From positions 32,001 through 96,000 of the forward strand of contig CBDHDG010000006.1 of the NCBI GenBank assembly GCA_965261595.1: 64,000 nucleotides of DNA. Reading direction: 5' to 3'. Source of the stretch: a bacterium (lineage in GTDB: Bacteria; UBA8248; JACPRG01; G963555815). The notes beneath the pieces are model-generated. The model searched no databases, was not told the origin of the DNA, and saw only the letters and a program-made list of their open reading frames with translations. The position numbers and the translations under genes are program-made. Shown piece by piece: positions 514 through 31,409 of the stretch (within the stretch, counting starts at the first letter, position 1; the number at the start of each line of letters is the position of its first letter).

Positions 514-915
514 ATGCAAAACGTCGTGAAGAAGGTCCGAAAGCGCAACCAGGAGGCGGTGGTCTCGGGCGCACAAAGGATCTACGAGGCCCACAGCCGC
601 CGGGCGGCCATCGCCGCCTTTTGGCGATGGGCCAAGCAGTGGCGAGGGCGGGAGCCCAAGGCGGTGGCGTGCATCGAGAGCGACCTCGAGACGTTGTTGG
701 CCCACTTCCAAGAGCCCCCCGCCCTTCGGGTCACCCTGCGCACGATAAACCCCATTGAGCGGGTCTTTCGGGAGGTGAGACGAAGAACCAGACCCATGAC
801 CGTCATGAACAACAACGAGTCCCTGGAACGCGTCGCCTACAGCGTGTTCCACCGCATTAACACCTAGTGGGAGACAAACCCTCTCTGCACTTCTACACAA
901 AACTCGTGACATTAC
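514..915 (+). pseudogene. IS256-family transposase, C-terminal fragment and right end
   Basis: LRTINPIERVFREVRRRTR motif. In-frame TAG at 865-867 is followed by WETNPLCTSTQNS*. The end sequence TACACAAAACTCGTGACATTACC is IS256-like. The 5' part is missing. Confidence 0.75.
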
Positions 916-2336: not shown

Positions 2337-4075
2337 GTGAATCACCATGAGCTTTTCCTTTCCCCCAAAGTGGTGATCGCCTACATCCTTGGCCGCCGGC
2401 TGATTCCGAAGACCGCCTTCGGCCGGGCTCACCGGGAATCCGGGCGCGGGGACCTCGGGCTTCTCCTTTCGACCTTCATCGCCCTCAGCCTGATCCTCAT
2501 CATCGCCCGCTCTCTGATTTTCGTGGCGCCGGCCGCCGTCCTGCTGTTCATCGGAGGGATCCGCCTCCTGGCCGGACAACCCCGCCGGCGCGTTCAGGCC
2601 GCCGCTGCGGGGCTGGCGGGAATCCTCACGGCATAGGTGATTTGGGGACTGATTGCGCTCCCCCACGTCCGCCTGGATTACTATTATTTTATCCGGAAGG
2701 CCCCGCTGCGGAAAATCACGCGGCCCGGCAAGCTCCCCCCCCCCCCCCTCACATCATCTTCATCGTGGTGGACACCCTTCGCTCGGACCATCTGAACGCC
2801 TACGGGTATTCCAAAGACACTTCACCCGTCATCTCCCGGCTGGCCCGGGAGGGGATTCGCTTCACGAGATTCCGCGCGAATTCCAACGAGACGTCACAGA
2901 CGGTGGCCTCCCTTTTGACCGGACGGCATCCCTCGGGGCACGGTCTCCTCCGCCTGGGAGACCCCCTGCCCGAGGGCGCCCCCCTGCTCACAGAAGTCCT
3001 CCAAAACCGGGGGTGCAACACGGCGTTCTTTACGCCCCACTGGTTTATCGATGGGCGCCCCAACTTCGAACGGGGCGCGGACTACCCCTACAGCGCATGG
3101 GAAGAGACGCCGTTCCGAATGGCGGGCGCCCAACAACTCTTCGTCTGGCTCAAGTTGACGGCGGCCTGGCCCGGCCTGAGCCATGCCCTTCAATGGCTGG
3201 ACATGAAGAAGAACGACCTCCTCTTGGCCGGCCTCGGGTTGCGAGCCATGGAATCCGCCGACCGGTTCACGGACAAGGTCCTGGGTTTCATGGATTACGC
3301 CACCGGCCGGAGGGATTACGACCCGGACCGGGACCGCTTCTTCCTGTTCCTTTTCTTCCACGACCTCCACTGGCCTCGGTGCCTCCCCAAGCCTTACCAT
3401 CGGATGTACGACCCCGAATACAACGGCCCGGAAATCTGTAGGAAGGAAGGCGCGCGCGATGTCCGGGAGGCCAAAAATGAAGTCGCCCGATACAACGGCG
3501 CGCTCCGGTTCGTGGACGGCCAGGTGGGCCGACTCCTCGACAAAATGAAATCCGTAGGCTGGCTCGATCAATCACTCGTCGTGATCACCTCGGACCACGG
3601 AGAGAAATTCGGCGCCGGCGGTGAGTTCGGCCACGGCGAAACGATGTGGGAGGATCTGGTCCGGATTCCTCTGATCCTCTGGTAGCCTTCCCGCTGGAAA
3701 AACGGCCAATCCGTCGGCGGCGTCGCCGAACAGGTGGACCTGATGCCGACCCTCCTCGATCTGCTGCGCATCCCTCGCCCCGCCGGGATTCAAGGACGAA
3801 GCCTGCTCACCGATCGGGGGTCCTTCCCCGCCGCGACGAACCGTTCAACCGCTTTCGGCGAGGCCGAAACGGAAACGGGCGGGTATCATTACCTCCTGCG
3901 CGACGGGTGGAAGCTTCTCCTCGGCCTCGGAAGACCGAAGCGGCTTTTCAACCTCAAAATGGATCCCGGTGAAAAGAAAAACCTATACGGCCGCCAGCCC
4001 CGAACCGGTGATATGGAGAAAGCCCTGAAGCAACGGATCCAGCGGGCGCGCCGGGCGGCCCCAAAGGGCCCTTGA
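2337..4075 (+). pseudogene. Membrane-anchored sulfatase-like hydrolase, interrupted
   Basis: Hydrophobic N-terminus, then IVVDTLRSDHL, SLLTGRHP, ITSDHGE, GHG and VDLMPTLLDLL. Interrupted by in-frame TAG at 2634-2636 and 3683-3685 and a frameshift in the poly-C run near 2735-2748. Confidence 0.75.
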
Positions 4076-10176: not shown

Positions 10177-11011
10177 CGGCCCCCCATCAGCGGCCCGGCC
10201 GTGCTCCGGAAATACGGCCACTCCGGTTATCCGTCCAACGACCATTTTCACCGTCAAGAATCCGTTACAACTCCACGTCATCGAAATGACATACCATCCG
10301 GCCCCACGCGAGTTTCAGGTTTGGGGGGGGGGTGGAGTTCCGTTGGGAAAAAACGAGAATGAAAGGTTTCGGGCTTGGGTTCGGTCGAACGACCCTCGAC
10401 CCGGACCCGTTCATAAAGGGGAAGCCGACTAAGCATAATATACTATATAATTGTCCACTCGTCGAAATGATTATTATCTTTCATTCGTCATAAGATCCGG
10501 TATCGGAATATAAACGAAGTCAATTCCGCGCCTTTTTCCATGAATACGATTCGCGTTTTCGAGTCGAACTTTCCGGGCAATCTCTCGGAGAAGTAACTAG
10601 TTCTGAACACCTAGTCTTTTATTACTATCACAGATGGAATCTTTCGGGTAAACGAAACTCCGCATCCATCTTGATTCCCACGTCGAACGAACCCGCGGCG
10701 CCCGGCAACGGGAGGCCGCTGATGCGCCTGAACCCCGCCGTTACAACATCCGCGCCGCTTCCCGCGTTTTTTCCCCCGCACCTTCGGCAGATTGAAGCCG
10801 CCTTCCTTATGGATTCGGGTTCATCTTAAAACGGTGTACCCGTGTTGCTGGTTGGCACATCAATTGCACACAGGTTCACGCTTTAGGGGAAACCTGAAAA
10901 ACATAAAAGACTCCATCGCGGCGGGGGCTTTTTCGCGAAATGATAAGGACCCTCTTCCGCGTGGCGCTCCCCATGTCCGCGCACAAGAGGGTCGAAAGGA
11001 GAATCGGAACA

Positions 11012-13364
11012 GTGGACGACCTGTGAGAGAGTTTCTGACGGAAAGCAACGAGAATCTATCGCGGCTCAACCAGAAAATCGTCGAGATCGAAAAGTCGCCG
11101 GACGACATGGAGATTCTCAACAACATCTTCCGAACGATCCACACCATCAAGGGAACGTGCGGGTTCCTGGGCTTGGAGAGGCTTGGGTCGGTCGCCCATG
11201 CCGCCGAGAGCGTCCTGGACCAGGCCCGGGACGGACGCCTCGCGATGGACCCCCGGACCGTGACCCTCGTTCTGGCGGCCGTGGATCTGATCACATCGAT
11301 CCTCGAGGGAATAGAACAAACCGAGGAGGAGCCCACCGGCGACGACGCCGAATTGATCGGCAGACTCGAGGCGCTCCTCCAGGACGGCGCCGAGACTGAA
11401 GAATCGGAGATTCATGAGGACCCGGTGGTGAGATCGCCGGATGAAATTCTTGAGGAAATCTCGGCCGCCGTCAAAACCGGGCTGGAAGAATCCGAGGCCC
11501 TGAAAACCGTCGCCGACGCGCAAGATTCCATTGAAAACGAGATCCGGGAGCAGCTGAACGGAGAGGCCGAGCAGGCACCGGAGGAGCCGGCGCAGGTCGG
11601 GGCCGTTCCTGAAACCCAGACATCCACCAAGGTCAGTAAGGGCAACGGCGCTTCGAGCAAGGGCAACGTGAGCAATCAGACGCTTCGCGTCAACGTCGAT
11701 GTCCTCGACAGCCTCATGAACATGGTCGGAGAGCTGGTCCTTTCCCGGAACCAACTCCTTCAGCTCACCCAGACAGACGGCGAGTCCGTCTACGCCAACT
11801 CTGTTCAACACCTCAACCGGGTGACCTCGGACGTGCAGGAAGGCGTCATGAAGACGCGGATGCAGCCCATCGGCAACGCCTGGGCCAAGCTGCCGCGCCT
11901 CGTGCGGGACCTCAGCCAGTCGCAGAACAAGAAAATCGACCTGGTGATGCACGGCGCCGAGACGGAGCTGGACCGCCAGCTCCTGGAAGTCATCCAGGAT
12001 CCCCTGACCCACATCGTCCGCAATTCGGCCGACCACGGCATCGAGGGCCCCGAGGCGCGCCTCCAGGCCGGAAAGCCCGAAACGGGCACAGTCACCCTGA
12101 ACGCCTACCAGGAGAGCGGCCACATCGTCATCGAAGTCGCCGACGATGGCGCCGGAATCAACGTGGAGAAGGTGCGTCAGAAGGCCGTTCAGCAGGGTTT
12201 GGTGGAGGAGGAAGCCGCCAAGGACCTGCCTGAGGCTCAGCTCCTCCAGTTCCTTTTCGCGCCGGGCTTTTCCACGGCGGAGAAGGTCACCGCCGTCTCC
12301 GGCCGGGGTGTCGGGATGGACGTCGTCCAAAGCAACATCGAAAAGATCGGCGGAACGGTCGACATCCGCAACAAGCATGGCCAGGGCACGACGCTCAAGA
12401 TCAAGATCCCCCTAACCCTGGCCATCATTCCGGCCCTCATGGTGGAAAGCGGCGGCAACCAGTACGCCATTCCCCAGGTCAACCTGATGGAGCTGGTCCG
12501 GCTGGAGGGGGAGCGAGCCGCCAAGGGAGTTGAAATGGTTCACGGCGCTCCGGTCTATCGCCTGCGGGGCAACCTCCTGCCCCTGGTGGACCTGAACCGG
12601 GAGCTGATGATCGAAGACGAGACCGCCCAGGAGGGGACGAACGGTTCATCGGGCGCCGAGACGATCAGCATCGTCGTCCTTCAGGCCGACGACCGGCAGT
12701 TTGGACTGGTGGTGGATGGGACCAACGACACCGAGGAGATCGTCGTGAAGCCCCTGGGAAAACTCCTGAAGGGGATCCCCCTCTTCGCCAGCGCGACCAT
12801 CATGGGCGACGGGAGGGTGGCGTTGATCCTGGACGTCCTGGGCATCGCCCAGCGGGCCAACGTGATTTCCGAGAATCGGGACCGTTCGAAGTCGGACACG
12901 ACGGTCCGCGCCGGAGACACCTCCCGGGAGGTCCAGACACTGCTCCTCATCCGCGCCGGCCAAGACGGGCGGATGGCCATCCCCCTCTCTCAAGTCGCCC
13001 GGTTGGAGGAGTTTCCCCGGCACACCATCGAGCGGGCGGGAATCAAGACGTGGTGCAGTACCGGAACGAGATCCTCCCGTTGATCCTGCTCTCCGGATTC
13101 CAGCCTTCCGCTTCATCCGACGAGGCCGATCAGGGCAAATCCGTCAAGGCGGTAGTCTACTCCGACCACGGCCGGAGCGTGGGCATCGTCGTGGACCAAA
13201 TCATCGACATTGTCAAAGAGACGATCTCCATCGAGCGGAGATCCCAAACCTCGGGCGTGATCGGATCCGCCATCATTCAGGGGAACGTCACAGACCTGAT
13301 CGACGTGGAAGGCGTCATCCGCGGGGCCGATCCCACGTTCTTCGAGCAGGCCGCGCCCGCATAA
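11012..13364 (+). CDS. cheA: Chemotaxis histidine kinase CheA with an extra C-terminal CheW domain (apparent frameshifts near 11022 and 13040)
   Basis: AAGGAG then GTG at 11012 gives MDDL(V)REFLTES after a 1-nt shift. IFRTIHTIKG Hpt motif, HIVRNSADHGIE, DDGAGI, SGRGVGMDVV. The second CheW domain continues in ORF 13050-13364. Confidence 0.9.
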
Positions 13365-13392: not shown

Positions 13393-13842
13393 ATGAAAGA
13401 ACAGCAACAGTTCTGCACGTTTTTTGTGGACGACCTCTATTTCGGCGTGGACGTGCAGAAGGTCCAGGAGGTCATCCGCTACCAGAACATGACCCGCGTG
13501 CCTCTGGCGCCCCGGGAAGTCCGGGGACTGATCAACCTGCGCGGCCAGATCGTCACGGCCGTCGATCTGCGCCGCCGGTTGAGCCTGGGTGAACACCCCG
13601 AGGACCAACTCCCGATGAACGTCGTTGTCCGCAACGACGACGGGGTGGTCAGCCTGCTCGTCGACGAAATCGGTGACGTCCTGGATGTCGATGAGGACAC
13701 CTTCGAGCCCCCTCCGGAGACCCTCGACGGCCTCGCCCGCGAGTTGATTCGGGGGGCCTACAAGCTCGAGGGGCGCCTCTTGCTGGAATTGGATACCGAT
13801 AAAACGATCGCCCTGAACGGCGAAACGGCGCCAAGCGGATGA
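13393..13842 (+). CDS. cheW: Chemotaxis adaptor CheW
   Basis: FCTFFV..FGVDVQKVQEV, GLINLRGQIVT, SLLVDEIGDV. Confidence 0.95.
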   Translation: MKEQQQFCTFFVDDLYFGVDVQKVQEVIRYQNMTRVPLAPREVRGLINLRGQIVTAVDLRRRLSLGEHPEDQLPMNVVVRNDDGVVSLLVDEIGDVLDVDEDTFEPPPETLDGLARELIRGAYKLEGRLLLELDTDKTIALNGETAPSG

Positions 13843-13984
13843 AATGCGCGAACCCGCAAAGCGTCTTCTTCTCCAAAGGCCCCTTGGAGGACCCCCACCC
13901 CTGAGCCGATGCGGCTTCAGGAATGACGAGACCCAGCCGCTCATGCACGTCTGGGACGGAAAAACCCGAAAGGAGAATGGGAAG

Positions 13985-14917
13985 ATGACCTCGAGAAAAT
14001 CTTTTTTGCAGGTGGGCGTCGCCTGGTTCGCCGGAGCGATCCTCCTGGCCGGCCTGAGCGGCTGCGACGGGAGCCGCGAGCCCAAATCGGAGACCCGAAA
14101 GCAGCGGTCGTCGATCCTGGACAAGATCCAGCTGGGCGGTGTCGTCAAGGCCTCCATCGGACATGGCGCCGAGAAGGCCTCCACCGGATATCGTCCCGAG
14201 AAGGCCAGCGCCAATGGCGCGAAGAAAGGGAGCGGCGGGTTTCCGGACCGGGGACTGGTCCGCAAGAACGTACCGGCCGACTTCAATCCGGACATCGAGT
14301 CCCCCCGCGTCCATGCCTCCGCCTGGGTCGACCCCCTCTCGAGCGTGATCGGAAACGTCGAGATCGGGCGGCGCGTCTACCTGGCGCCCTTCAGCTCCGT
14401 GCGCGGGGATGAAGGTCAGCCGATCCACATCGGCAACGAGTCCAACCTCCAGGACGGCGTCGTCATCCACGCCCTGGAGACCGTCGCGTACGGAAAGCCC
14501 GTCTGGAAGAACACTTACGCGGTCAATGATCGGCGATACGCCGTCTACATCGGCGACCGCGTCTCCCTGGCCCATCAGTCCCACGTCCACGGACCCGCCT
14601 ACATCGAGGATGACGTCTTCGTCGGCATGCAGGCCATGGTCTTCATGTCCCACGTCGGCCGGGGAAGCGTCATCGAGCCGGGGGCCAAGGTGATGGGCGT
14701 CTCGATCCCGCCGGGAAGATACGTCAAAATCGGAAGCATCGTGGCCGACCAGAAGACCGCCGACAACCTTCCGGAGATCACCGAATCTTACCAGTTCCGC
14801 AACATCAACAAGGCGGTGGTCCACGTGAACACGAGTCTCGCGGACGGCTACTCCGGACGCGGCTCGAAGAAGGGCCACGCCGCGAAGCCGGGCCCCGCCG
14901 CCAAGAAAAGCCATTAG
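13985..14917 (+). CDS. Gamma-class (Cam-type) carbonic anhydrase, predicted lipoprotein
   Basis: RGDEG, SNLQDGVVIHALET, SLAHQSHVHGP and VVHVNTSLADGY match Methanosarcina Cam. The signal peptide ends in the lipobox LSGC. AGGAG at 13971. Confidence 0.9.
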   Translation: MTSRKSFLQVGVAWFAGAILLAGLSGCDGSREPKSETRKQRSSILDKIQLGGVVKASIGHGAEKASTGYRPEKASANGAKKGSGGFPDRGLVRKNVPADFNPDIESPRVHASAWVDPLSSVIGNVEIGRRVYLAPFSSVRGDEGQPIHIGNESNLQDGVVIHALETVAYGKPVWKNTYAVNDRRYAVYIGDRVSLAHQSHVHGPAYIEDDVFVGMQAMVFMSHVGRGSVIEPGAKVMGVSIPPGRYVKIGSIVADQKTADNLPEITESYQFRNINKAVVHVNTSLADGYSGRGSKKGHAAKPGPAAKKSH

Positions 14918-14950
14918 GCCATCAAACCGGAATATAAGGAGAGAAGATCG

Positions 14951-16687
14951 ATGCGGATGAACCTGACATTACGGAAGCAGCTCCTCGGCGCGTTCGGGCT
15001 GGAGTTAATCCTGTTCATAGGGCTCACTATCTTCATGCTCTGGGAGATGGGGGGGATCAACGACCACGTGGTCACGCTCCATGACAAAAACCTCCTGCCC
15101 CTCCAGGCCGCCGCCGAGGCGAACATCGAGCTGCTTGAGACGGACAAGTACCTGCTGGAGATCATCATCGAGGAGGACGCGAATAAACGCCGAGGCTTAG
15201 AGGAAAAGATGGCCCATGCCGAAAAGGCCATGTTCAAGTTCCTCAAAAAGCTCGAGGCGAGCGCGGACCGGGAGGAGCTCGAAGCGCTCGAGGCCTTTAC
15301 GGTTCCCTACCAGACCTGGGTGGGCGTCCGAAAGCGCGCCGTCGCGCTGGCGGATGCGGACAAACTCAAAGACGCCCAGCACCTCATCGAGAAAGAAGCG
15401 GAAGCACCCTTCGAGCAAGCGGACAAGATTCTGACCGGCATCATTCACCACAACGAGGAGCGTGCGGAAAAGACGTACCAAGAAAGCAGGCGGGACTACG
15501 ACCAAGTCCGATTGCTCACGCTCATGGCTTTCGCGACGGCTATCGGCCTTCTTGTAGCGATCCTGTTGACGAGAAAGATATTGACCGCAATCAGGGAGAT
15601 CGGGGAAGTCGCGGACCGCATGGCAGACGGAGACCTCACCGACTCGGAGTCCATCAGGAAGCTCACCACCCGCTCCAACGATGAGATCAGCCAAATGGCC
15701 ACGGCTCTCCAAAAGGCCATTGGGGCGATGCGATCAGCCATCCAAAGAATCGCCCAGAACGCCCAAGCCCTGACCGCGTCCTCCGAGCAAATGGGATCCG
15801 CCAGCCAACAGATGGCCGCTAACTCGGAGGAGACCTCCGCTCAGGCCAACTCCGTCTCGGCGGCCTCCGAGGAAGTCAGCCGAAACCTTCAAACGGTCGC
15901 CAACGCCGCCGAGGAGATGGGCGCCAGCATCAAGGAGGTCGCCCAAAACGCCGGCGAGGCCGCCCGCGTGGCCACCTCCGCCGTCTCGGTCGCCGATTCC
16001 ACCAATGAAAAAGTCGCCCGGCTCGGGGAGAGCAGCGCCGAGATCGGCAAGGTCATCAATTCCATCGCCGAGCAGACCAACTTGCTGGCGCTCAACGCCA
16101 CCATCGAAGCGGCCCGGGCCGGAGAGGCCGGCAAAGGGTTTGCCGTCGTCGCCAACGAGGTGAAAGAACTGGCCAAGCAGACCGCCCGGGCCACCGAGGA
16201 CATCAGCAAAAAGGTCGAGGCCATCCAGACCGATGCCTCGGGAGCCGTGGAGGCCATCGGTCAAATCGGCGCCGTCATCAACCAGGTCAATGATATCTCA
16301 AGCACCATCGCCGGCGCCGTTGAGGAACAAAGCGCGACGACGCAGGAAATCGGCCGGAATGTCGCCGAGGCGGCCAAAGGCAGCACTGAGATCGCCGAGA
16401 ATATCGCACGCGTGGCCGGGGCCTCCAATTCCACTTCGGACGGCACCACCGAGATCCAGGGCGTGACGAACGAGCTGTCCCGCATAGGGGCGGGGCTTCA
16501 GCAACTCATCGCGCAGTTCAACTTCGGCGACGATCAGGCAAGCGCTCCGCGAAAGGCGGTCGAGAAGAAACATGAAATTGCGGCCGGCCCACAACCTTCT
16601 TTGAAGGCGGAGCACGTCGTTGTCGCTCCGGACTACCGCCTACCCGCAATGATCGCGAGCGAACTCGCTTCGAACGGGGACAGCTAA
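14951..16687 (+). CDS. Methyl-accepting chemotaxis protein (four-helix-bundle sensor, HAMP, signalling domain)
   Basis: Two TM helices flank a helical domain; [37 protein letters not shown]. Confidence 0.95.
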
Positions 16688-17011
16688 GGCCGGAGTTGCC
16701 CGAAGCCGTCATAGGCCGGGCGGTGACGCCCTGCTGGCTTATGCCTGCTTCGGCCGCATCCGGTGTGAGTTCGCGCCGATAGGCGACGGGCTCACACCTC
16801 GCCAAGAGTTCGGAGCGTGGAAACCGGGGATGAGAACCTCGAGCCGGATTGCACGGGATCGTCCGAGACGAGGGCGGTCACGTCGTTTTCCTCCGGACAA
16901 AGTACATTGCGGCGATTCTCTGGCTGGCAAACGACTTTCGGGCCAGCCGGGCAACAGGAGTCAATGAGTCCATGCAAGTTGGCCTGAGAATCACACCGCC
17001 CAGAGAAACCC

Positions 17012-18226
17012 ATGAATGCCCCTTCCACGCTGTCGCCGTTCGCCATGAGTGAAGCGCGCGACTCAGGGATCGAACAAAGCCGGCTCGCGACCCGAATTGC
17101 CCACGCCAAGGCTGAATGGGAGGCGACCGTGGACGCAGTGTCAGCCCCAATCGCCCTGCTCGACCATGCGGACATCGTGGTCCGATGCAACCGCGCCCTG
17201 GGACGCCTTGCCGGGCGCGATCTGCGTAAATGCCTGGGCCGGCGCTGGGCCGATTTGTTCCCCGGCCTGCCGCTTCCCATGCCCGGAGACCTTCCGCTGG
17301 AATGGACTCACCCTCCTTCCGGCCGGACCTTCTTCCTGACCAATCGATCTGTCGAAACATCGGACGGAGACGCGGACCCGAAGAAGGTGGTGGCGATGAT
17401 GGACATTTCGGCGCAGCGTCGGAAGGAGGTCGAGGTGATGGCGCGCGTCGACCGCTGGGCCACCCTGGGCGCGCTGGCCATGACCACCGCACATGAGATC
17501 AACAATCCGCTGGCGGGTCTGCGCCTGCAAGCCAACAACCTCGAAACCCTGATCCCGCCCTATCTGGAAGATCCCCCCGGGGGGGCGTCGGACGGACCCC
17601 CCGACCGAGCCAACCTGCGGCGCCAGGTTTCCGAGTGCCTGTCGGGGATCCTCTCCGCGTCGGAGCGCATCGGCGCCATCGTCGACGAATTGCGCCGGTT
17701 CGGCCGCCCGCAGGACGCCCCCGCGAAACCGGTTGATGTCCGGGAAGTGGTCAAATCGGCGCTCATGCTGCTCGGGCCGAAACTCAAAAACATCCGGGTG
17801 ACGACAAACCTCGCGGCTGAACTGACGCCGATCATGGCCAATCCCATCAAGGTCGAACAAGTCCTCATCAACCTGATTTCCAACGCCGCGGACGCCTTCG
17901 ACGAAAACGGCGGCCGTGAGAGAAGGGATCTCTCCATCTCGGCCGTCGACCGCCGGGGAGGGGTCACCCTGGAAGTGGCCGACACCGCGGGGGGGATTCC
18001 TCCAGACGTTGCGGACAAGATCTTCAAAACCTACGTCAGCACCAAACCGGTCGAGCGGGAGACCGGACTCGGTCTGATGATCACCCGGGCGAATGTTCAG
18101 GCTCTCGGCGGCGAGATCACATTCACCACACAACCGGAGCGGGGAACAACGTTCACCATTTTCCTTCCCCGCTCCGAAGTCCCCAACCAGGAGAGTGCCC
18201 ATGACCGCACCGATTCTCATCGTTGA
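17012..18226 (+). CDS. PAS-domain sensor histidine kinase (cytoplasmic)
   Basis: WEATVDAV PAS-like N-terminus, AHEINNPL, EQVLINLISNAADA, DTAGGI, TGLGL. Confidence 0.9.
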   Translation: MNAPSTLSPFAMSEARDSGIEQSRLATRIAHAKAEWEATVDAVSAPIALLDHADIVVRCNRALGRLAGRDLRKCLGRRWADLFPGLPLPMPGDLPLEWTHPPSGRTFFLTNRSVETSDGDADPKKVVAMMDISAQRRKEVEVMARVDRWATLGALAMTTAHEINNPLAGLRLQANNLETLIPPYLEDPPGGASDGPPDRANLRRQVSECLSGILSASERIGAIVDELRRFGRPQDAPAKPVDVREVVKSALMLLGPKLKNIRVTTNLAAELTPIMANPIKVEQVLINLISNAADAFDENGGRERRDLSISAVDRRGGVTLEVADTAGGIPPDVADKIFKTYVSTKPVERETGLGLMITRANVQALGGEITFTTQPERGTTFTIFLPRSEVPNQESAHDRTDSHR

Positions 18227-18632
18227 CGGCGATCCGGATCTGCTGAGCGCGCTCAATACATTCCTGGAGCTCAGAGGGTTTCAGGCGGATGCCGAGCCCG
18301 ATCCCCGACGGGCCGCCGAGCGCATCCGGGAGGGAGACTATCGCGTGGCCCTTTTGGACATCGTCATGCCGGAGATGGATGGTCTCGAGCTGCTCCAGAT
18401 CATTCGCAGGGAGCGGCCGGAGATTGAGGTCGTCATGCTCACGGCCAACAGCACCCGGCAGCGGGTTTGGGCCGCCCGGGAGTTGGGCGCGGCCGATTTC
18501 GTCCTGAAACCGTTTTCCGACTTCGAGATGACCGGTCACGTCGTGATGCTGGCCCTGGAGCGGTCCAACCGCTGGCTCGATGTCATCCAAAAGAGTCCAT
18601 CCGAACCCTGGCAGGAGGTTTCTCTGAAATGA
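18201..18632 (+). CDS. Single-domain response regulator
   Basis: LLDIVMPEMDG, VVMLTA, FVLKPF; AGGAG upstream. Confidence 0.9.
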   Translation: MTAPILIVDGDPDLLSALNTFLELRGFQADAEPDPRRAAERIREGDYRVALLDIVMPEMDGLELLQIIRRERPEIEVVMLTANSTRQRVWAARELGAADFVLKPFSDFEMTGHVVMLALERSNRWLDVIQKSPSEPWQEVSLK

Positions 18633-18996
18633 AGGCTCTGCTCATCGTTGAAGATTCCAAGTCCATCCGCACCGCCATCCGCCGCATCCTCGAGCCCCTC
18701 GGCTTCCAGGTCAGCGAGGCGGCCGACGGCGAGGAGGCGCTGGCGCACTGCACGAACAACGGCCTGCCCGACGGCATCCTGCTCGACATTGACATGCCGG
18801 TCATGGACGGCATCACCTTTCTCAAGGCGATACGCCAAAACCAGAGTTACGACGGGGCATCGGTCATCATGTGTACAACGCACAACTCCCTCGAAAAGAT
18901 CACCGAGGCCATGGAAGCCGGCGCCAACGAGTACGTCATGAAACCTTTCGACGAGGACATCATCCGCGGAAAACTCGAAGCGGGGGACTTCTCTGA
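18629..18996 (+). CDS. cheY: CheY-like response regulator (apparent 1-nt loss in a G run near 18982)
   Basis: LIVEDS, LLDIDMPVMDG, MCTT, EYVMKPF. Restoring one G gives ...EAGGLL-TGA overlapping the cheB ATG (TGATG). Confidence 0.85.
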
Positions 18997-20053
18997 TGAA
19001 TTCAACCCAAAAACCCATCCGCGTGATGGTGGTGGACGACTCCGCCGTCATCCGGGGCCTGCTCATAAGGCTTATCAGAAAAGAACCGGATATGTGCGTC
19101 AGCGCGACGTCTTCGAACGGACAATCCGCCCTGACCGCCCTGCGGACGAATCCGACCGACGTGGTCCTTCTGGACATTGAGATGCCCGTCCTGGACGGAC
19201 TCTCCACCATCCCCCACCTCCGGCGCGATTTTCCGCACGTCCACATCATCATGGTCAGCACCCTGACTCAAAAAGGGGCGCGGGAGACGATGCGGGCCCT
19301 GTCTTCGGGGGCGACCGACTACGTTTCCAAACCGACTTTGATGCAGAGTGGAAAGGGATTGCAGCAGATCGAGGACGATCTCTTGTCCAAGATCCGGGCC
19401 CTGAAGCCCCGGGCCTCGGAAACCCCCTTGGGTCAGTCGTACACCTTGCAGCCTCCGCCCGATCCCGCATGGACGCCTTGCGTCTTGGCGGTGGGCGCCA
19501 GCACGGGCGGGCCCAACGCCCTGGTGGAGCTGTTGTCGGCCCTGCCGAGCGCCATAACCTTGCCCATCCTCATCGTCCAGCACATGCCTCCCATCTTCAC
19601 GACCCTGCTCGCGGAGCGGCTGGGGAAAATCACCGGCCGGACCGCCCTGGAGGCCACCGAAGGCCGGACCATCGAGCCGGGCTGGATCTATGTCGCCCCT
19701 GGAGATCACCACATGATGGTGAGGGAGCGCGGAGGAGAACGGATCCTCCGGCTGAACCAGGCCGCCCGCGAGAACTTCTGCCGGCCCGCGGTGGACCCCC
19801 TCTTTCGTTCGGCGGCGGAGACCTACGGCCGGGAGGTTTTGTCCGTGGTCCTCACCGGCATGGGACAAGACGGTCAAAAAGGGAGCGAATCCATCATCCA
19901 CCACGGGGGGTCGTTCTGGCGCAAGACGAGGCAAGCAGCGTGGTCTGGGGGATGCCGGGCGCGATCGCGGAAGCCGGGCTCGCCACCGCCATACTCCCCC
20001 TTTCCGACCTCCCGTCCCACATCATGCGTTATTGCGAGGTGTCCGTCCGATGA
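18996..20053 (+). CDS. cheB: Chemotaxis methylesterase CheB (frameshift at G run near 19905-19910)
   Basis: Receiver domain plus [26 protein letters not shown]. It continues [14 protein letters not shown] in another frame. Confidence 0.92.
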
Positions 20054-20853
20054 AGCCTCAAGACTACGAGTTCCTGGTAGACCAAAGCGGGCTGTCCTTG
20101 AACGCGGAAAAGGAATATCTGATGACCAGCCGCCTGAACCCGGTGGCCGCTTCCCTCGGTCTCACCGATCTCGAGGGCCTCATCCGGCGTCTGAGGTTTC
20201 AAGCCGACCCCGACCTGGTCCGTACGGTCACCGAGGCCATGAACACCCATGAGTCCTACTTCTTCCGTGACGTCAAACCCTTCGACACCCTGCGGGAGGA
20301 CGTCCTGCCGACGCTCATGGAGGCGCGGCGGAAGACGAGCCGCCTGCGAATCTGGTGCGCCGCCTGTTCGACCGCCCAGGAGCCTTACTCGATTGCCATG
20401 TTGATCGCCGCGGACTTCCCCGAACTGAAAAACTGGCGGCCGGAGATCCTCGGGACCGACATTTACAAGAAAATTCTCGATCGAGCCAGCGCCGGTCTGT
20501 ATAGCCACCTGGAGGTTCAACGGGGCCTTCCGGTGACCATGCTGGTCCGGTTTTTCCGTCAATGTGGCCGGGACTGGCAGATTGACCCGAAAATCCGTGA
20601 GATGGTCGACTTTAAGCAGGTCAACCTCCTTGAGCCGTACACAAATCTGGGCCAATTCGACGTCATTTTCTGTCGAAATGTCCTCATCTACTTCGACGGA
20701 ACCACCAAAACCGATGTACTGAATCGCATGGCGCGGGCCCTCGCGCCGGATGGCTATCTTTTCCTCGGCGGCGCCGAGACGGTGCTGGGACTTTCATCCG
20801 AGTTCGAGCGAAACGATTCAAGGGGGTTGTACTATAAAAAACGCCAAACCTAG
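20050..20853 (+). CDS. cheR: Chemotaxis methyltransferase CheR
   Basis: [49 protein letters not shown]. Confidence 0.95.
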
Positions 20854-21089: not shown

Positions 21090-22532
21090 GAGGGTGTCCC
21101 GAATTCAGTTGAAGGTTTGAGGCGGCGGTCCGTGTGTGGTTCACCTTATGCGACCTCCTCTCGGGTGTCAAAGCGGGGCTCGTCCAGAACGGCCTTCAGG
21201 ATCCACAGGTCCCGGTAGCCGTCCAGGCGACGGAAGTTCTTCTCGGTGGCGAGGAAGGCGGAAGCGGCCCACCTTTTCACCATCGCCCCGTCCCGCCAGC
21301 GGCCGACGCGCCGGGTGCGCATCCGCACCCCCGAACAGGGACTCTCGATCAGGTTCGTGCTCACCAGGCAGCGCCGAAGGCCGGGCGGAAGAGCCAAGCG
21401 GTTGACGGTGAAGATCTCCTCCAGACCCTCCAAAAGGCTGGCGGCCGCGTCCGGATGCTCGATCTGAAGCCACCGGGCCTGCTTGCGCAGACGGGCAATC
21501 CCCTCCTTCGGCGCCAGCCGCCAGGCCGCCTTCATCGTCGCCTTCACCGGATCCTTCAACTCCTCGGGCAGGTGGTCCATCACGTTCTTCACCTTGTGGT
21601 TGCGGCACCGCTGCACCGGATTGTCGTCCCCGTACACCCGGTCAATCGCCGCACGAAGCGCCCTCGAGCCGTCGATGACAAAAAGCCGACGCCGCCCGGG
21701 CCGCACGCCGCGCTCCACCAACTCCTCAAGAAGCGCCGTCACGACCGTGGCGTTCTCGGTGGCGCCCGACCTCAGGCCCAGAACGTGCTTTTGGCCCCGT
21801 GTGTCCACCCCAACGGCCACGATGACGTGATGCGCGCCGAAGCGCAGACCGTCCAGGTAGAGGATGAGGAGGTCGATGTCGTCAAAACGCCGCTCACAAA
21901 GACGCCGCAGCTTCGCCTCGGCCGCCTCGATGCTCTCCCGGCTCACGGCCGACTTCGACACCCCCACCGTCTCGGCCAGCTCGGGAAGAACGGCCGCGTA
22001 GTTCCGCGTCGAGACCCCTCGCATCAGCAAATCCAGCATCCGCTCCCCCAGCCCGGGGTCGGCCTGCATGGCCGCATACGCCGGCACCTCCACCTCCCCG
22101 CCCCGACCCTGGCCCCGGCGGCGAAGCCGCGGCTTTCTCACCTTCAGCTTGCGCCCCTTCAGGGTCACCCGGCCCCCCTGGCTGCCGTGCCGGCGGACCT
22201 CGCCACCCCGCTTGCCTGGATGCGGCGCGCCCGTCAAGCCCTTGGCCGACAGCAAAAGCACGGCCTCCAGGCCCGCCCGGCCCATGACGTCCATCAGGTC
22301 CTCCACCGCCAGTTGGGACTGCTCCACCAGCGACACCAGAGGAAAAAACGCCTGCCCATGCTCCGCCACAAAGGCGGCCAACCTTTGGGTCTCTTTCTTC
22401 TCGATGATCTGGTAAGCTTCACTCATGGCGGTTCCTCCTCTTTGAATGTTTGCCAACCCGATTCTAACCGAGTCGGCAGGAGTGAACCGCCACCTCTTTT
22501 TCTCAACCTTCAACTATGAATGGGACAGGCTC
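21090..22532 (-). mobile_element. Complete IS256-family element
   Basis: Imperfect IRs GAGGGTGTCCCGAATTCAGTTGAAGGTT and GAGCCTGTCCCATTCATAGTTGAAGGTT. Flanking duplication TGGCGAA at 21083-21089 and 22533-22539. Confidence 0.9.
21146..22426 (-). CDS. IS256-family transposase
   Basis: LYLDG, FVIDGSRAL, VQRCRNHK, STNLIES; start taken at MSEAYQ. Confidence 0.92.
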   Translation of the reverse strand: MSEAYQIIEKKETQRLAAFVAEHGQAFFPLVSLVEQSQLAVEDLMDVMGRAGLEAVLLLSAKGLTGAPHPGKRGGEVRRHGSQGGRVTLKGRKLKVRKPRLRRRGQGRGGEVEVPAYAAMQADPGLGERMLDLLMRGVSTRNYAAVLPELAETVGVSKSAVSRESIEAAEAKLRRLCERRFDDIDLLILYLDGLRFGAHHVIVAVGVDTRGQKHVLGLRSGATENATVVTALLEELVERGVRPGRRRLFVIDGSRALRAAIDRVYGDDNPVQRCRNHKVKNVMDHLPEELKDPVKATMKAAWRLAPKEGIARLRKQARWLQIEHPDAAASLLEGLEEIFTVNRLALPPGLRRCLVSTNLIESPCSGVRMRTRRVGRWRDGAMVKRWAASAFLATEKNFRRLDGYRDLWILKAVLDEPRFDTREEVA

Positions 22533-23275
22533 TGGCGAACGCGGGGCGCGTCCTCATTGCTGATGATGAAGAAACGATTCTCGAATTAACGGCCGAGGTG
22601 CTGCGCCAGGAAGGATACGAGTGCGATTGCTCCCCGGACGCCCTCATGGCGACGCAACTGCTCGAGAGGGCAGCGTACGACTTGGTGATCACCGACATTC
22701 AGATGCCCGGCAACTCGAACCTGGAGTTCGTCAAGAGGATTCCGCATCTTGCCGAGGGGGTGCCCGTCATCCTGGTAACCGGCTATCCATCGCTGAATTC
22801 CGCGATGGAGTCGATTCAGCTGCCTGTGGTGGCCTACCTGATCAAACCGGTGGATTTCGAGTTGTTGTTGGAGAAGGCCCGGGTTGCGGTGAAGGGTTTC
22901 CAGGCCTTTCAGACCGCCCGCGAGATGCGCCGGCTTGTGCAGAGATGGAAGGATGACCTTTCCGAGGTCGAGGACGCGTTGAAAATCCCTTCCCCATCCG
23001 CCGCCTCGACCACCCCCATCGACGCCTTCCTTCAACTGACGTTTCAAAACATTGTCGGCTCCCTGTCCAACATCATGCGCCTGTCCGGAACCCTCGCCGC
23101 CGACAAAGGACTCACCGAAGCCTGCCACATCCTCAATTGCCCCAGACATCGGGATTTGAACGAGGCCCTGGGGGAGACCATCGAGGTCCTGAAAAAACCG
23201 AAAGCCGCGCTCAAGTCCAAGGAGTTGGGGACGCTGCGCGCGAAGCTGGAACAACTCCTCCGGAACGAGAGATGA
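22520..23275 (+). CDS. Response regulator with uncharacterised helical C-terminus
   Basis: VLIADDE, VITDIQMPG, ILVTGYP, YLIKP. The current ATG lies inside the IS256 end. Confidence 0.85.
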   Translation: MGQALANAGRVLIADDEETILELTAEVLRQEGYECDCSPDALMATQLLERAAYDLVITDIQMPGNSNLEFVKRIPHLAEGVPVILVTGYPSLNSAMESIQLPVVAYLIKPVDFELLLEKARVAVKGFQAFQTAREMRRLVQRWKDDLSEVEDALKIPSPSAASTTPIDAFLQLTFQNIVGSLSNIMRLSGTLAADKGLTEACHILNCPRHRDLNEALGETIEVLKKPKAALKSKELGTLRAKLEQLLRNER

Positions 23276-25267: not shown

Positions 25268-26173
25268 TCAGGTCACCTCCGAGCACCGGGCGATCCGCAG
25301 CATCAGGAACGCCACAGCCACCAGCAGGGGGAAGAGGAACAGGGCGATGGCCGCCCCCTCGGCCAGGTCCCCCCCGTCAATCCCCGTGTAAAACGCCAGG
25401 CTCGCCAGAACTTGCGTCGAGTCGAAGGGACCTCCGCCCGTCAAGACATAGATGACGATCATGTCGGTGAAGGCGAAGACCAGGCCGAACAGAACGGCGA
25501 CGCTCAGGATGGGTCGGAGCATCGGGATCGTGATCTCGAACTCCCGCCGCCAGAACCCGGCCCCGTCCACGCTCGCCGCGTCGTGAATTTCCTGGGGAAT
25601 GGAGGAAAGCCCCGCAAGAAGAATCACTGTCGCCAGCGGGAGCAGACGCCAGACGTGAATGACGATGATGGTGGATATGGCCAGGGCCGGGAAGCCCAGC
25701 TACATGGGCCAGGTGTCGGGGCCGAAAATCCCCACGGCCCGCAATCTCCAGTTGATGATGCTGTAAATGGAGTCCAGGATCCACATCCACCCGATGGCAC
25801 CCAGGGAGATGGGTGCCACCCAGGGCAGCATAATCAGTCCCCGAACCACCCACTTGCCCCGGAAATCCTTCAACAGCAGCAGCGCCAGGGTCTTGGCCAG
25901 GACCAGAACAATGGCCTGCGGGGCGAAGGCGAAGATGAAGGTGATCTTGACGGCGACCCGGAAGGCGGGCGTAGAAAAGATTTGCTTGAAGTTTTTCAGG
26001 CTGACGAAATTGAGACTCGTGCTTCCCACGGTGATGTCGCTCACGCTGTAGGAAAGCGTGAGAAGAAAGGGAAGGCCGATGATCGCCGCGATGTAGAGAA
26101 CGGCGGGCGAGATCATCAAGCGCCCGAGCCAATCCTCCCGGTCGAGAAGGTACGCAAATCGTCCCGCCGCCAA
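25268..26173 (-). CDS. CUT1 ABC permease with in-frame TAG at 25700-25702
   Basis: AGGAGG then TTG at 26173. MLPWVAP...WPM*LG...[20 protein letters not shown] is all one frame. Confidence 0.8.
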
Positions 26174-28482: not shown

Positions 28483-28657
28483 CAAAAACTCCTTCTCGGC
28501 CCGCACCGGCCGGGCGCGCCATCGTTCACCGAATCCCCAATTATTTTACCATGAGTTCCGGAATTCATCCCACGGCGCTCCCGATTGGTAGTGGTCTAGT
28601 GGAGTTGACCCGGTTTGGTGGACACCTGATGATTTGGGGGTAAAGGAGGTGTTCACG

Positions 28658-28972
28658 ATGCCACAGACTCACCCACGCTATCCAATGGAGTTCCGCTGCC
28701 AGATGGTAGAGTTGGTCCGGGCGGGACGCACGCCCGAGGCGCTGGCGCACGAGTTCGAGCCCTCGGCGCAGACGATCCGCACCTGGGCCCATCAAGCCGA
28801 CGTTGACGAGGGGCGTCGCAAAGACGGGCTCACGAGCGATGAGCGGGAGGAGTTGCGCCGACTTCGCCGCGAGAACCGACAGCTCCGCCAGGAGCGGGAG
28901 ATCTTAGCAAAAGCCGCGGCCTGGTTTGCTCGGGATACCGATTCGATCCCGTCCGGATCTACGGGTTCGTGA
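28658..28972 (+). CDS. IS3 transposase OrfA
   Basis: HTH plus EELRRLRRENRQLRQEREILAKAAAWF. Slippery AAAAG at 28909-28913. Confidence 0.9.
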   Translation: MPQTHPRYPMEFRCQMVELVRAGRTPEALAHEFEPSAQTIRTWAHQADVDEGRRKDGLTSDEREELRRLRRENRQLRQEREILAKAAAWFARDTDSIPSGSTGS

Positions 28973-31282: not shown

Positions 31283-31409
31283 TTGGTCACACCATCCGGG
31301 AGCACCCGAACAATGCAACCCGACACCCCTCAAGATACTCCTTTAAATCTGGAGAATCAAGCGGAATGTGACGGGCATTGCTCCTGGACCACCAAGGGAG
31401 CATCCGTCA

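What the first reader, a model, noticed from the sequence alone, without database searches (positions are those of the whole stretch)
13393..16687. Lipoprotein gamma-carbonic anhydrase embedded between cheW and a chemoreceptor
Seen: gene order cheA-cheW-CA-MCP on one strand, with only 33 nt between CA and MCP. The CA keeps the three Zn/Fe His ligands and the Cam-type catalytic residues (RGDE, QD, HALE, VN). It has a lipobox and a Tat-like SRKSFL motif. Known: CAs interconvert CO2 and bicarbonate plus a proton, and are not standard chemotaxis components. Inference: the periplasmic CA may convert CO2 into a bicarbonate or pH signal, or bind the four-helix sensor domain directly, giving a CO2-sensing chemosensory pathway.
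Basis: partly seen in the sequence, partly recalled or inferred. Interest (0 to 1): 0.75.

Follow-up and report, generated by a model that had tools for sequence, protein, structure and literature searches.

The report
Exported carbonic anhydrase inside a chemotaxis operon
A lipid-anchored, apparently active carbonic anhydrase really is encoded between cheW and a chemoreceptor gene, but no relative whose gene neighbourhood could be read shares this layout, so a role in sensing CO2 stays an untested idea.

Summary
On the + strand lie cheA, cheW (13393-13842), a 310-aa Cam-type gamma-carbonic anhydrase (13985-14917) and a 4HB-HAMP chemoreceptor (14951-16687). The CA-MCP gap is 33 nt. No terminator-like site was found before 16857. 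The CA matches Methanosarcina Cam at E 1e-63. It keeps all three His ligands and the Cam catalytic residues, and it has a lipobox (LSGC, Cys27). The "Tat-like" motif is RK, not RR, and no relative conserves it.

The linkage is not conserved. Of 80 loci encoding Cam-type relatives, 0 have cheA, cheW, cheB or cheR within 8 kb. Three have an MCP-like gene, none in an operon with the CA. Of the 20 exported or anchored forms, 0 have any of these. The closest lipoprotein relatives (57-63% identity) could not be placed in their genomes.

The region is rich in IS elements and carries nonsense-split genes. cheA and cheB have frame breaks, and the MCP has odd in-frame deletions.

My best reading (0.5) is an ordinary periplasmic CA that landed in this operon in one narrow lineage. 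The CO2-to-bicarbonate/pH converter idea remains open (about 0.3).

The parts
10853..10868 (+). sigma-54-type -24/-12 element TGGCACatcaaTTGCA in the AT-rich 600-nt region upstream of cheA; candidate operon promoter
   Evidence: the only exact match in the window. Allowing up to 1 mismatch there are 2 matches against 1.13 expected. The consensus is recalled. Sequence.
11023..13364 (+). cheA (Hpt, dimerisation, HATPase_c, CheW-like, then a second CheW-like domain). The reading frame breaks near 13040-13050 and the last domain continues in ORF 13050-13364. The GTG 11023 start is inferred.
   Evidence: Pfam (proteins 1 and 2); three-frame translation; sequence.
13393..13842 (+). cheW (149 aa from ATG 13393, the length of its 94-99% identical homologues; the longest ORF starts at GTG 13372)
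   Evidence: Pfam CheW 1.1e-32; homologues P0127-P0130 are 149 aa.
13843..13984 (+). 142-nt cheW-CA spacer. No sigma-70-like promoter or terminator-like site was found. It has mild predicted structure in which UUCUUCUCC pairs with the CA ribosome-binding site.
   Evidence: no + strand site here; z -2.07.
13985..14065 (+). CA signal peptide (residues 1-26) ending in lipobox L-S-G-C27, followed by Asp at +2
   Evidence: sequence; hydrophobic segment at residues 6-24; lipobox Cys shared with P0005-P0009, P0011-P0013 and P0049.
14066..14257 (+). low-complexity Lys/Ala/Gly/Ser-rich linker (residues 28-91) that includes a 27-nt tandem repeat at 14138-14191
   Evidence: sequence; repeat D1; region poorly conserved.
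14258..14854 (+). Cam-type gamma-carbonic anhydrase catalytic domain (residues 92-290). Metal ligands are H162, H197 and H202. R140, D142, E143, Q156, D157, E165 and N282 are also present.
   Evidence: E about 1e-63 to Cam structures, alignment shown; invariant columns; NF040597 at 269 bits, below its cutoff of 380; Hexapep.
14855..14917 (+). basic C-terminal tail ending in His, then stop codon TAG
   Evidence: many homologues end in His; TAG is an ordinary stop in this window.
14918..14950 (+). 33-nt CA-MCP spacer with AAGGAG at 14936-14941; no terminator
14951..16687 (+). MCP, 578 aa: TM1 residues 11-29; periplasmic 4HB sensor residues 33-186 (15047-15508); TM2 residues 188-206; HAMP 15563-15718; MCPsignal 15935-16426
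   Evidence: Pfam; hydropathy; model with pLDDT 74 and four long helices; best fold matches are 4HB chemoreceptor ligand-binding domains, MCP2201 at TM 0.78.
16857..16879 (+). first terminator-like hairpin on the + strand after cheA, inside a strongly structured stretch (16690-16880); probable end of the cheA-cheW-CA-mcp transcription unit
   Evidence: (z -3.97, 0 of 200 shuffles fold as well).
17012..20853 (+). second part of the cluster: PAS-HisKA-HATPase kinase (17012-18226), two receiver proteins (about 18201-18632 and from about 18629), cheB (from 18996, frame break in a G6 run at 19904-19909, continuing to 20053), cheR (20032-20853)
   Evidence: Pfam; sequence.
21146..22513 (-). IS256-family transposase directly after cheR
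   Evidence: NF033543, 212 bits, cutoff 150.

Best explanation
The gene encodes a genuine, probably active Cam-type gamma-carbonic anhydrase. It is exported by the Sec/lipoprotein route and tethered by its N-terminal lipid and a linker of about 60 residues to a membrane facing the periplasm. There it interconverts CO2 and HCO3- + H+. This is the general inorganic-carbon and proton role that exported Cam has at the outer face of the Methanosarcina membrane.

In one narrow lineage the gene came to lie inside the first transcription unit of a chemosensory cluster (sigma-54-like promoter, cheA, cheW, CA, mcp, terminator-like hairpin), so it is expressed together with that unit. Nothing beyond this co-expression is needed to explain the arrangement. 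On this reading the CA is a passenger, not a dedicated part of the sensor.

Shown: the enzyme family and catalytic residues, the lipobox, gene order and spacing, the absence of detectable terminators, and the non-conservation of the context.

Inferred: export and lipidation, enzymatic activity, co-transcription, and the absence of a sensory role.
For: Identity and competence:
- Cam structures match at E about 1e-63, and all ligand and catalytic residues are conserved.

Export:
- lipobox and hydrophobic signal.
- 45 of 58 close database homologues have a hydrophobic N-terminal extension, and 13 of those have a lipobox. Exported forms are therefore a common, stand-alone type.

Context is not conserved:
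- of 80 relatives' loci (up to 8 kb on each side), 0 have cheA, cheW, cheB or cheR. Three have an MCP-like gene: L062 and L072 convergent with the CA, L045 about 5 kb away.
- all three of those CAs are the cytoplasmic type, so 0 of 20 exported or anchored forms sit near any che or MCP gene.
- relatives sit in unrelated contexts. 33 of 80 lie directly after coaE in a valS-nadC-birA-coaX-coaE housekeeping row. 5 Gemmatimonadota loci lie beside a kinase and a GGDEF gene. Nitrospirota and Chloroflexota contexts differ again.
- At least 561 GTDB species-representative loci encode a relative, and chance adjacency to an MCP is about 2 in 80. One lineage with an in-operon copy is therefore not surprising.

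Literature and genomic setting:
- No paper on a CA in a che operon was found in four full-text searches.
- the surrounding region is in flux, with five IS elements or fragments and two genes split by nonsense codons.
Against: - Operon membership is normally a good predictor of shared function. The CA sits between two core chemosensory genes, 33 nt from the MCP, with no terminator before 16857.
- Both proteins face the same compartment.
- GC3 of the CA ORF (0.83) equals that of its neighbours (0.80-0.83), and no flanking repeats mark a recent insertion.
- The MCP's sensor domain is itself rare: 19 hits at E <= 1e-3 among 1.84 billion representatives. A dedicated CA-receptor pair would therefore be expected to be narrow too.
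- The cheW-CA junction recurs in a second assembly. CheW P0128 and CA P0002 both report a 1784-bp contig.
- The context of the closest lipoprotein relatives was never seen.
Confidence: 0.5

Rival explanations
1. Signal converter. The tethered periplasmic CA keeps CO2, HCO3- and H+ at equilibrium on a millisecond scale right next to the receptor. The adjacent 4HB chemoreceptor senses bicarbonate or pH, so it reports CO2 fast enough for temporal gradient sensing. This would be most useful where the cell's own metabolism or a nearby source keeps CO2 and bicarbonate out of equilibrium.
For: - Same transcription unit, 33-nt spacing, and no terminator until after the MCP.
- Same compartment.
- All catalytic residues kept.
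- A rare, lineage-specific sensor domain that is conserved at 83-85% and 56-58% identity in two other lineages.
- Exported Cam in M. acetivorans is proposed to hand protons to a neighbouring membrane protein, AceP (bioRxiv 10.1101/2024.04.24.590269, passages read).
- Bicarbonate is a known bacterial chemoeffector (H. pylori TlpA, abstract seen).
- Recalled, not checked here: tethered extracellular CAs serve CO2 sensing in animal sour-taste cells and squid sperm.
Against: - 0 of 20 exported relatives and 0 of 80 relatives overall show the linkage.
- No CA cluster representative among the best 120 hits carries the 363,351-bp contig length shared by the closest CheW (94%) and MCP (85% in the sensor) orthologues. 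This is weak evidence, because contig figures seem to describe only cluster representatives.
- The sensor's best structural matches bind organic acids or amino acids, and none scores E <= 0.001.
- The periplasm exchanges small solutes with the medium, so a CA changes nothing when the outside is already at equilibrium (inference).
- cheA and cheB are frame-broken, and the MCP has a 3-residue deletion in its conserved tip region.
Confidence: 0.3
2. Co-receptor. The CA trimer docks on the periplasmic tip of the receptor, as periplasmic binding proteins do on Tar or Trg, and transmits a substrate-dependent change directly.
For: Only the gene adjacency and the shared compartment, plus the threefold symmetry shared by Cam trimers and receptor trimers-of-dimers (recalled; speculative).
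Against: - No conserved linkage.
- The enzyme keeps a full catalytic set and shows no sign of being turned into a binding protein.
- Cam is a rigid beta-helix trimer with no known ligand-induced domain closure (recalled).
Confidence: 0.07
3. Decaying cluster (not exclusive of the readings above). In this strain the chemosensory cluster is being lost. Whatever the CA once did there, the pathway no longer signals, and the arrangement has no present function.
For: - A cheA frame break near 13040-13050 and a cheB frame break in a G6 run at 19904-19909.
- An IS256 directly after cheR, and four further IS elements or fragments in the window.
- Two other genes split by in-frame TAG codons, although TAG is a normal stop here (11 of 46 genes end in TAG).
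- The MCP lacks 3 residues next to the conserved [12 protein letters not shown] tip, relative to P0123, P0125 and PDB 2ch7. It also lacks 2 residues in TM2 relative to its 99% twin P0122.
- Related database entries look damaged. CA P0052 lacks residues 61-121 and has an unrelated tail. MCP P0124 lacks its N-terminal 123 residues.
Against: - Both frame breaks are single-base differences in base runs, which is also the signature of assembly error.
- The CA and MCP reading frames are intact, and the CA is 308 of 310 identical to P0002.
- Metagenome-derived entries are often fragmentary for technical reasons.
Confidence: 0.25

Closest known systems
Cam, the gamma-class carbonic anhydrase of Methanosarcina thermophila (PDB 1thj, 1qrg and others) and M. 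acetivorans
   Same: - E about 1e-63 over 199-201 residues.
- Same three His ligands, and the same Arg59, Asp61, Glu62, Gln75, Asp76, Glu84 and Asn202 equivalents (alignment; the numbering is recalled, and the offsets agree).
- Also made with an N-terminal export signal and located at the outer face of the membrane (passages).
   Different: - Bacterial, with a lipobox Cys and a low-complexity tether of about 60 residues instead of a simple cleaved leader.
- Basic C-terminal tail ending in His.
- Encoded in a chemosensory operon.
- Scores 269 bits against NCBIfam NF040597, below its cutoff of 380.
Exported or membrane-anchored bacterial Cam-type CAs (Gemmatimonadota, Myxococcota, Nitrospirota, Chloroflexota and unnamed metagenome proteins P0005-P0013)
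   Same: - 50-64% identity over the whole alignment.
- Same catalytic residues.
- N-terminal signal or anchor, in 20 of 78 genome loci and 45 of 58 database hits.
- In a neighbour-joining tree the window protein sits with the lipobox-bearing subgroup.
   Different: None of the 20 exported forms with readable context lies near che or MCP genes.
Bicarbonate and acid chemoreception by H. pylori TlpA, and indirect chemoreception through periplasmic binding proteins (MBP-Tar type)
   Same: These are precedents that bicarbonate and pH are chemoeffectors (abstract in the listing). They also show that a separate periplasmic protein can feed a 4HB receptor (recalled).
   Different: TlpA has a dCache sensor and no linked CA. 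Binding proteins are not enzymes. No enzyme-plus-receptor pair of this kind turned up in the four literature searches.
CcmM N-terminal gamma-CA domain of beta-carboxysomes
   Same: Second-best group of solved relatives (3kwc, 3kwd; E about 1e-39 to 1e-40). NF053794 matches at 176 bits.
   Different: CcmM is cytoplasmic and carboxysomal and carries RbcS-like repeats. Here there is an export signal and no such repeats, and the score is far below the cutoff of 550.

Membership tests
Cam-type gamma-class carbonic anhydrase | Left-handed beta-helix built of hexapeptide repeats | tested here: met
   Pfam Hexapep at 7.7e-16; end-to-end alignment to Cam structures.
Cam-type gamma-class carbonic anhydrase | Three His metal ligands (Cam His81, His117, His122) | tested here: met
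   H162, H197 and H202 align to them and are invariant in 33 sequences.
Cam-type gamma-class carbonic anhydrase | Cam-subclass catalytic and proton-shuttle residues (Arg59, Asp61, Glu62, Gln75, Asp76, Glu84, Asn202), which set Cam apart from the CamH/YrdA-type proteins | tested here: met
   R140, D142, E143, Q156, D157, E165 and N282 are present and invariant or nearly invariant. YrdA/PaaY-type relatives score only E 1e-6 to 1e-11.
Cam-type gamma-class carbonic anhydrase | Homotrimer with active sites at subunit interfaces; measurable CO2 hydration | not testable with these tools
   Inferred from about 55% identity to Cam.
Bacterial lipoprotein (signal peptidase II substrate) | Basic n-region, hydrophobic core, and lipobox [LVI][ASTVI][GAS]C near residues 15-35 | tested here: met
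   MTSRKSFLQVGVAWFAGAILLAGLSG-C27; hydrophobic segment at residues 6-24; lipobox Cys shared by 9 close relatives. The pattern is recalled. No SignalP-type tool was on hand.
Tat (twin-arginine) substrate | S/T-R-R-x-F-L-K motif with two consecutive arginines, conserved among orthologues | tested here: not met
   The motif here is S-R-K-S-F-L. Relatives read MNSKVSTLR, MHSNTSLFR, MKSIISLVR and MKGTTLFFR, and the 83%-identical P0052 also has RK.
Transmembrane methyl-accepting chemotaxis protein (4HB class) | TM1, periplasmic four-helix bundle, TM2, HAMP, and MCP signalling domain with the conserved hairpin | tested here: met
   Pfam 4HB_MCP_1 at 2.9e-20, HAMP, and MCPsignal at 3.3e-29; two TM segments; model and fold matches. 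Caveat: a 3-residue deletion just before the conserved tip.
Complete chemosensory (Che) gene cluster | cheA, cheW, MCP, cheY-type receiver, cheB and cheR together, all intact | tested here: inconclusive
   All the domains are present, but cheA and cheB each carry a frame break. Whether these are real or assembly errors cannot be decided here.
   0 of 80 loci with cheA, cheW, cheB or cheR. 3 of 80 with an MCP-like gene, none co-oriented and adjacent. 0 of 20 exported forms. The closest lipoprotein relatives and the MCP orthologues could not be examined.

The most novel reading that the evidence does not exclude
A membrane-tethered periplasmic carbonic anhydrase works as the front end of a bacterial chemoreceptor. 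It turns CO2, which no known bacterial receptor reads directly, into bicarbonate or protons at the receptor. That would give a sigma-54-controlled CO2-taxis (or CO2-responsive Che-like) pathway. It would be a bacterial counterpart of the tethered-CA logic that animals use for CO2 sensing, and the first enzyme-coupled chemoreceptor of this kind.
Probability: 0.3. Interest if true: 0.8.

Novelty: new member of a known kind. Interest (0 to 1): 0.4.

Why it matters
If the CA only rides along, this is one more exported Cam-type carbonic anhydrase, a widespread but little-studied bacterial group. The useful lesson would then be that position in an operon alone is weak evidence in an IS-rich, rearranging region.

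If the CA does feed the receptor, it would show how bacteria can follow CO2 gradients. It would also add a new design principle to chemoreception: an enzyme that makes the ligand at the receptor. The idea is cheap to test, because both parts are small, soluble periplasmic domains.

Tried and rejected
- **Tat export.** Rejected: the motif is RK, not RR, and is not conserved.
- **TAG read as a sense codon.** Two genes in the window are interrupted by in-frame TAG. The CA and MCP frames coincide, separated only by TAG plus 11 sense codons. Rejected because 11 of 46 genes end normally in TAG. A CA-MCP fusion would also put the receptor's sensor on the wrong side of the membrane.
- **Recent mobile insertion of the CA.** No flanking direct or inverted repeats beyond chance-sized matches. 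GC3 equals that of the neighbours.
- **Own promoter or terminator around the CA.** None found by the simple scans. No Rfam family in the spacers; the only Rfam hit in the window is a tRNA at 31141-31233.
- **A parallel CA-plus-sensor theme in Gemmatimonadota** (GGDEF gene beside the CA in 5 loci). The GGDEF proteins have no credible membrane or periplasmic part: 0 or 1 weak hydrophobic segment. They do not support periplasmic sensing.
- **Sensor ligand from structure.** The model is an ordinary 4HB ligand-binding domain. The best matches are MCP2201, Vc1313, Tsr, PcaY and Tar, none at E <= 0.001. There is no sequence match to any solved sensor. The Atlas returned only generic 4HB clusters.
- **Cluster-member look-up.** The database was switched off.
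- **Maximum-likelihood tree.** The tree programs could not be loaded. A neighbour-joining tree was used instead.
- **Contig-length coincidences as a proxy for linkage.** This gave one positive: CheW P0128 and CA P0002 both report 1784 bp. It also gave one weak negative: no CA reports 363,351 bp. The figures seem to describe cluster representatives only, so absences carry little weight.
Full report
**What is there.** On the + strand the window carries cheA (ORF to 13083), cheW (13393-13842; longest ORF from 13372) and an ORF at 13844-14917 with hexapeptide repeats. After it comes a 578-aa chemoreceptor at 14951-16687 with 4HB_MCP_1, HAMP and MCPsignal domains. Then follow a PAS histidine kinase, two receiver proteins, cheB and cheR. 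The gap between the hexapeptide ORF and the MCP is exactly 33 nt and contains AAGGAG.

**The carbonic anhydrase.**
- The likely start is ATG 13985, 7 nt after AAAGGAG. This gives 310 aa, the same start as a 99%-identical database protein that matches at 308 of 310 positions.
- Residues 92-290 match Methanosarcina thermophila Cam structures at E 2e-64 to 1.5e-63.
- In that alignment R140, D142, E143, Q156, D157, H162, E165, H197, H202 and N282 fall on the Cam residues I recall as Arg59, Asp61, Glu62, Gln75, Asp76, His81, Glu84, His117, His122 and Asn202. The printed offsets agree with that numbering.
- All of these residues are invariant or nearly invariant in an alignment of 33 homologues.
- NCBIfam's Cam model scores 269 bits, below its cutoff of 380. 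The protein is therefore a diverged Cam-type enzyme, not an equivalog.
- The N-terminus (MTSRKSFLQVGVAWFAGAILLAGLSG-C27) has a basic start, a hydrophobic core and a lipobox, with Asp at +2.
- A low-complexity linker of about 60 residues follows, containing a 27-nt tandem repeat. The C-terminus is a basic tail ending in His.
- The "Tat-like" SRKSFL has R-K, not R-R. The close relatives read quite differently at this spot, and the 83%-identical P0052 also has RK. I reject Tat export in favour of the Sec/lipoprotein route.
- No signal-peptide predictor was available, so this rests on reading the sequence.

**Transcription units.**
- Upstream of cheA lies a 600-nt AT-rich region with an exact TGGCAC-N5-TTGCA element at 10853-10868. 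It is the only exact match in the window.
- Between cheA and the end of the MCP, the simple scans find no sigma-70-like promoter and no terminator-like hairpin on the + strand.
- The first terminator-like hairpin is at 16857-16879, inside a stretch that folds far better than shuffles (z -3.97).
- The 142-nt cheW-CA spacer is only mildly structured (z -2.07). Rfam finds nothing there.
- cheA-cheW-CA-mcp therefore looks like one transcription unit. This is inferred, not shown.

**The receptor.**
- It has two membrane segments that flank residues 33-186.
- A model of that part (pLDDT 74) is a four-helix bundle. Its best structural matches are ligand-binding domains of MCP2201, Vc1313, Tsr, PcaY and Tar, none at E <= 0.001.
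- No solved sensor matches it by sequence.
- The sensor is rare. Among 1.84 billion representatives only 19 proteins reach E <= 0.001 and 2 reach 1e-30 (P0123 at 85%, P0248 at 58%).
- The word-based search found 5 hits in all.
- The ligand cannot be read from any of this.

**Is the linkage conserved?** A scan of one genome per GTDB species returned 561 confirmed loci encoding a relative, and the best 80 were kept, at up to 67% identity.
- Searching those 80 loci (up to 8 kb on each side) with the window's own proteins gave cheA 0, cheW 0, cheB 0, cheR 0, and the MCP sensor 0.
- The MCP signalling domain hit 3 loci. L062 and L072 are convergent with the CA, and L045 is 5 kb away.
- 58 of the 78 recovered CA ORFs have no N-terminal extension and are cytoplasmic forms. 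All three MCP-neighbouring loci are among them.
- 20 ORFs have a hydrophobic extension, and 0 of those 20 lie near any che or MCP gene.
- What the relatives do sit next to differs by phylum. 33 of 80 follow coaE in a valS-nadC-birA-coaX-coaE row. Five Gemmatimonadota loci lie between a kinase-GGDEF pair and an HD-domain gene. Nitrospirota and Chloroflexota have other neighbours.
- The GGDEF proteins are not membrane sensors.

**The gap in that test.**
- In a neighbour-joining tree the window's CA groups with lipobox-bearing metagenome proteins (P0005-P0013), not with any of the 80 loci.
- As a proxy I compared the contig lengths printed with the hits.
- CheW P0128 (97%) and CA P0002 (99%) both report a 1784-bp contig, which is long enough for cheW + spacer + CA. 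The junction therefore recurs in a second assembly.
- CheW P0130 (94%) and MCP P0123 both report a 363,351-bp contig, but none of the 120 listed CA hits does.
- This hints that a sister lineage keeps cheW and the receptor without an intact CA. The figures appear to describe cluster representatives only, so I give this little weight.

**State of the region.**
- The window holds an IS256 directly after cheR, another IS256 fragment, an IS3, an IS1 and an IS1380 fragment.
- An arylsulfatase and an ABC permease are each split by an in-frame TAG. TAG is an ordinary stop here: 11 of 46 genes end in it.
- cheA changes frame near 13040-13050, inside its second CheW-like domain. cheB changes frame in a G6 run at 19904-19909.
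- The MCP lacks three residues immediately before the conserved [12 protein letters not shown] tip, relative to P0123, P0125 and PDB 2ch7. It also lacks two residues in TM2 relative to its 99% twin.
- Two related database entries look damaged (P0052, P0124).
- Either the assembly has indel errors or the cluster is decaying. The nonsense codons argue that at least some of the damage is real.

**How it most likely works.** The enzyme and its export are well supported. The open question is whether it serves the receptor.
- For coupling: operon position, shared compartment, a rare sensor, and the precedent that exported Cam is thought to hand protons to a neighbouring transporter (bioRxiv 10.1101/2024.04.24.590269, passages).
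- Against coupling: no recurrence in any readable relative, and a large family (at least 561 loci) in which 2 of 80 members sit by an MCP by chance. The region is also rearranging, and a periplasmic CA changes local chemistry only when CO2 and bicarbonate are out of equilibrium.
- I put the passenger reading at 0.5, the CO2-to-bicarbonate/pH converter at 0.3, and direct docking at 0.07.
- Decay of the whole cluster (0.25) can overlap with any of these.

**Literature.**
- Four full-text searches listed no paper on a carbonic anhydrase in a che operon or on a bacterial CO2 chemoreceptor.
- From these searches I saw only listings and abstracts, plus one passage of PMC3543383, which concerns a formate dehydrogenase cluster and is irrelevant here.
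- H. pylori TlpA is described as sensing bicarbonate and acid (abstract).
- The animal parallels (tethered CA in sour-taste cells and squid sperm), the +2 Asp rule, and the Tat and sigma-54 consensus sequences are recalled, not checked.

**Verdict.** On the best-supported reading this is a new member of a known kind in an unusual place. Interest is 0.4. The bold reading keeps about 0.3 probability and would be worth about 0.8 if shown.

Still unchecked: the neighbourhoods of the closest relatives, a complex prediction (tool unavailable), a signal-peptide predictor, and the identity of the organism. The only hint to the organism is that the named CheW hits at 72-74% identity are from Gemmataceae.

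Noticed in passing
window 13000-13364: cheA changes reading frame near 13040-13050. Frame 0 ends ...IERAGIKTWCSTGTRSSR*, while another frame continues NQDVVQYRNEILPLI... as a second CheW-like domain (ORF 13050-13364). This is either a real frameshift or an assembly indel.
   Followed up: partly
window 19860-20053: cheB changes frame inside a run of six G at 19904-19909. The conserved C-terminal [17 protein letters not shown]... continues in ORF 19469-20053.
   Followed up: partly
window 3683-3685 and 25700-25702 (minus strand): An arylsulfatase and a UgpA-like ABC permease are each split by a single in-frame TAG. TAG is nevertheless a normal stop here: 11 of 46 genes end in TAG, 25 in TGA and 10 in TAA. 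These look like true nonsense pseudogenes.
   Followed up: yes
window 514-867, 21146-22513, 28634-29817, 31368-32228, 62659-63213: Five IS elements or fragments (IS256 twice, IS3, IS1, IS1380) in 64 kb. One IS256 lies directly after cheR, separating it from a receiver-domain gene at 22520-23275. A low-GC stretch (0.505) at 30-32 kb holds the IS1 and a tRNA (31141-31233).
   Followed up: partly
window 10853-10868: An exact sigma-54-type -24/-12 element (TGGCACatcaaTTGCA) lies about 155 nt upstream of the likely cheA start, in a 600-nt AT-rich intergenic region that also contains a run of ten G near 10325.
   Followed up: partly
window 16054/16055 and 15523/15524: The MCP lacks 3 residues just before the conserved [12 protein letters not shown] hairpin region, relative to P0123, P0125 and PDB 2ch7. 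The deletion is shared with P0122 and P0124. The window copy also lacks 2 residues (IL) in TM2 relative to P0122. A non-heptad deletion at this place is unusual, and its effect is unknown.
   Followed up: partly
window 14915-14953: The CA and MCP reading frames are the same, separated only by TAG and 11 sense codons. Read-through would fuse them, but the fusion would invert the receptor's membrane topology, so I take this as coincidence.
   Followed up: yes
alignment A1, C-termini: Roughly 20 of 33 exported or anchored Cam-type homologues, including the window protein, end in a C-terminal His after a variable low-complexity tail. I know of no explanation.
   Followed up: no
L002, L004, L005, L010, L057 (about 4000-9400 in L002, L004 and L005): In five Gemmatimonadota loci the anchored Cam-type CA lies in a conserved row: Ser/Thr kinase, GGDEF protein on the opposite strand, CA, then an HD_4-domain gene in L004 and L005. 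The GGDEF proteins have no clear membrane segments.
   Followed up: partly
L013-L076, Syntrophales and relatives (33 of 80 loci): Cytoplasmic Cam-type CAs of about 204 aa sit directly after coaE. In about 14-19 of these loci the full valS-nadC-birA-coaX-coaE-CA housekeeping row is present.
   Followed up: partly
window 13865-13980 and 16690-16880: In the predicted fold of the cheW-CA spacer, UUCUUCUCC pairs with the CA ribosome-binding site (z -2.07). The 190 nt after the MCP stop fold much better than shuffles (z -3.97) and end in a terminator-like hairpin.
   Followed up: partly
P0052 and P0124 (database proteins): P0052 is a CA variant with the same lipobox. It lacks residues 61-121, has Ala for the Asp142 equivalent, and has an unrelated tail after residue 233. 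P0124 is a 97%-identical MCP that lacks its first 123 residues and a further 15 residues. They may be damaged copies in related strains or assembly artefacts.
   Followed up: partly
P0014 (database protein): A 309-aa Cam-type homologue is listed with a precomputed MHYT domain (PF03707, a membrane sensor module) next to its hexapeptide repeats. This is a possible natural fusion of this CA type to a signalling-type membrane domain.
   Followed up: no
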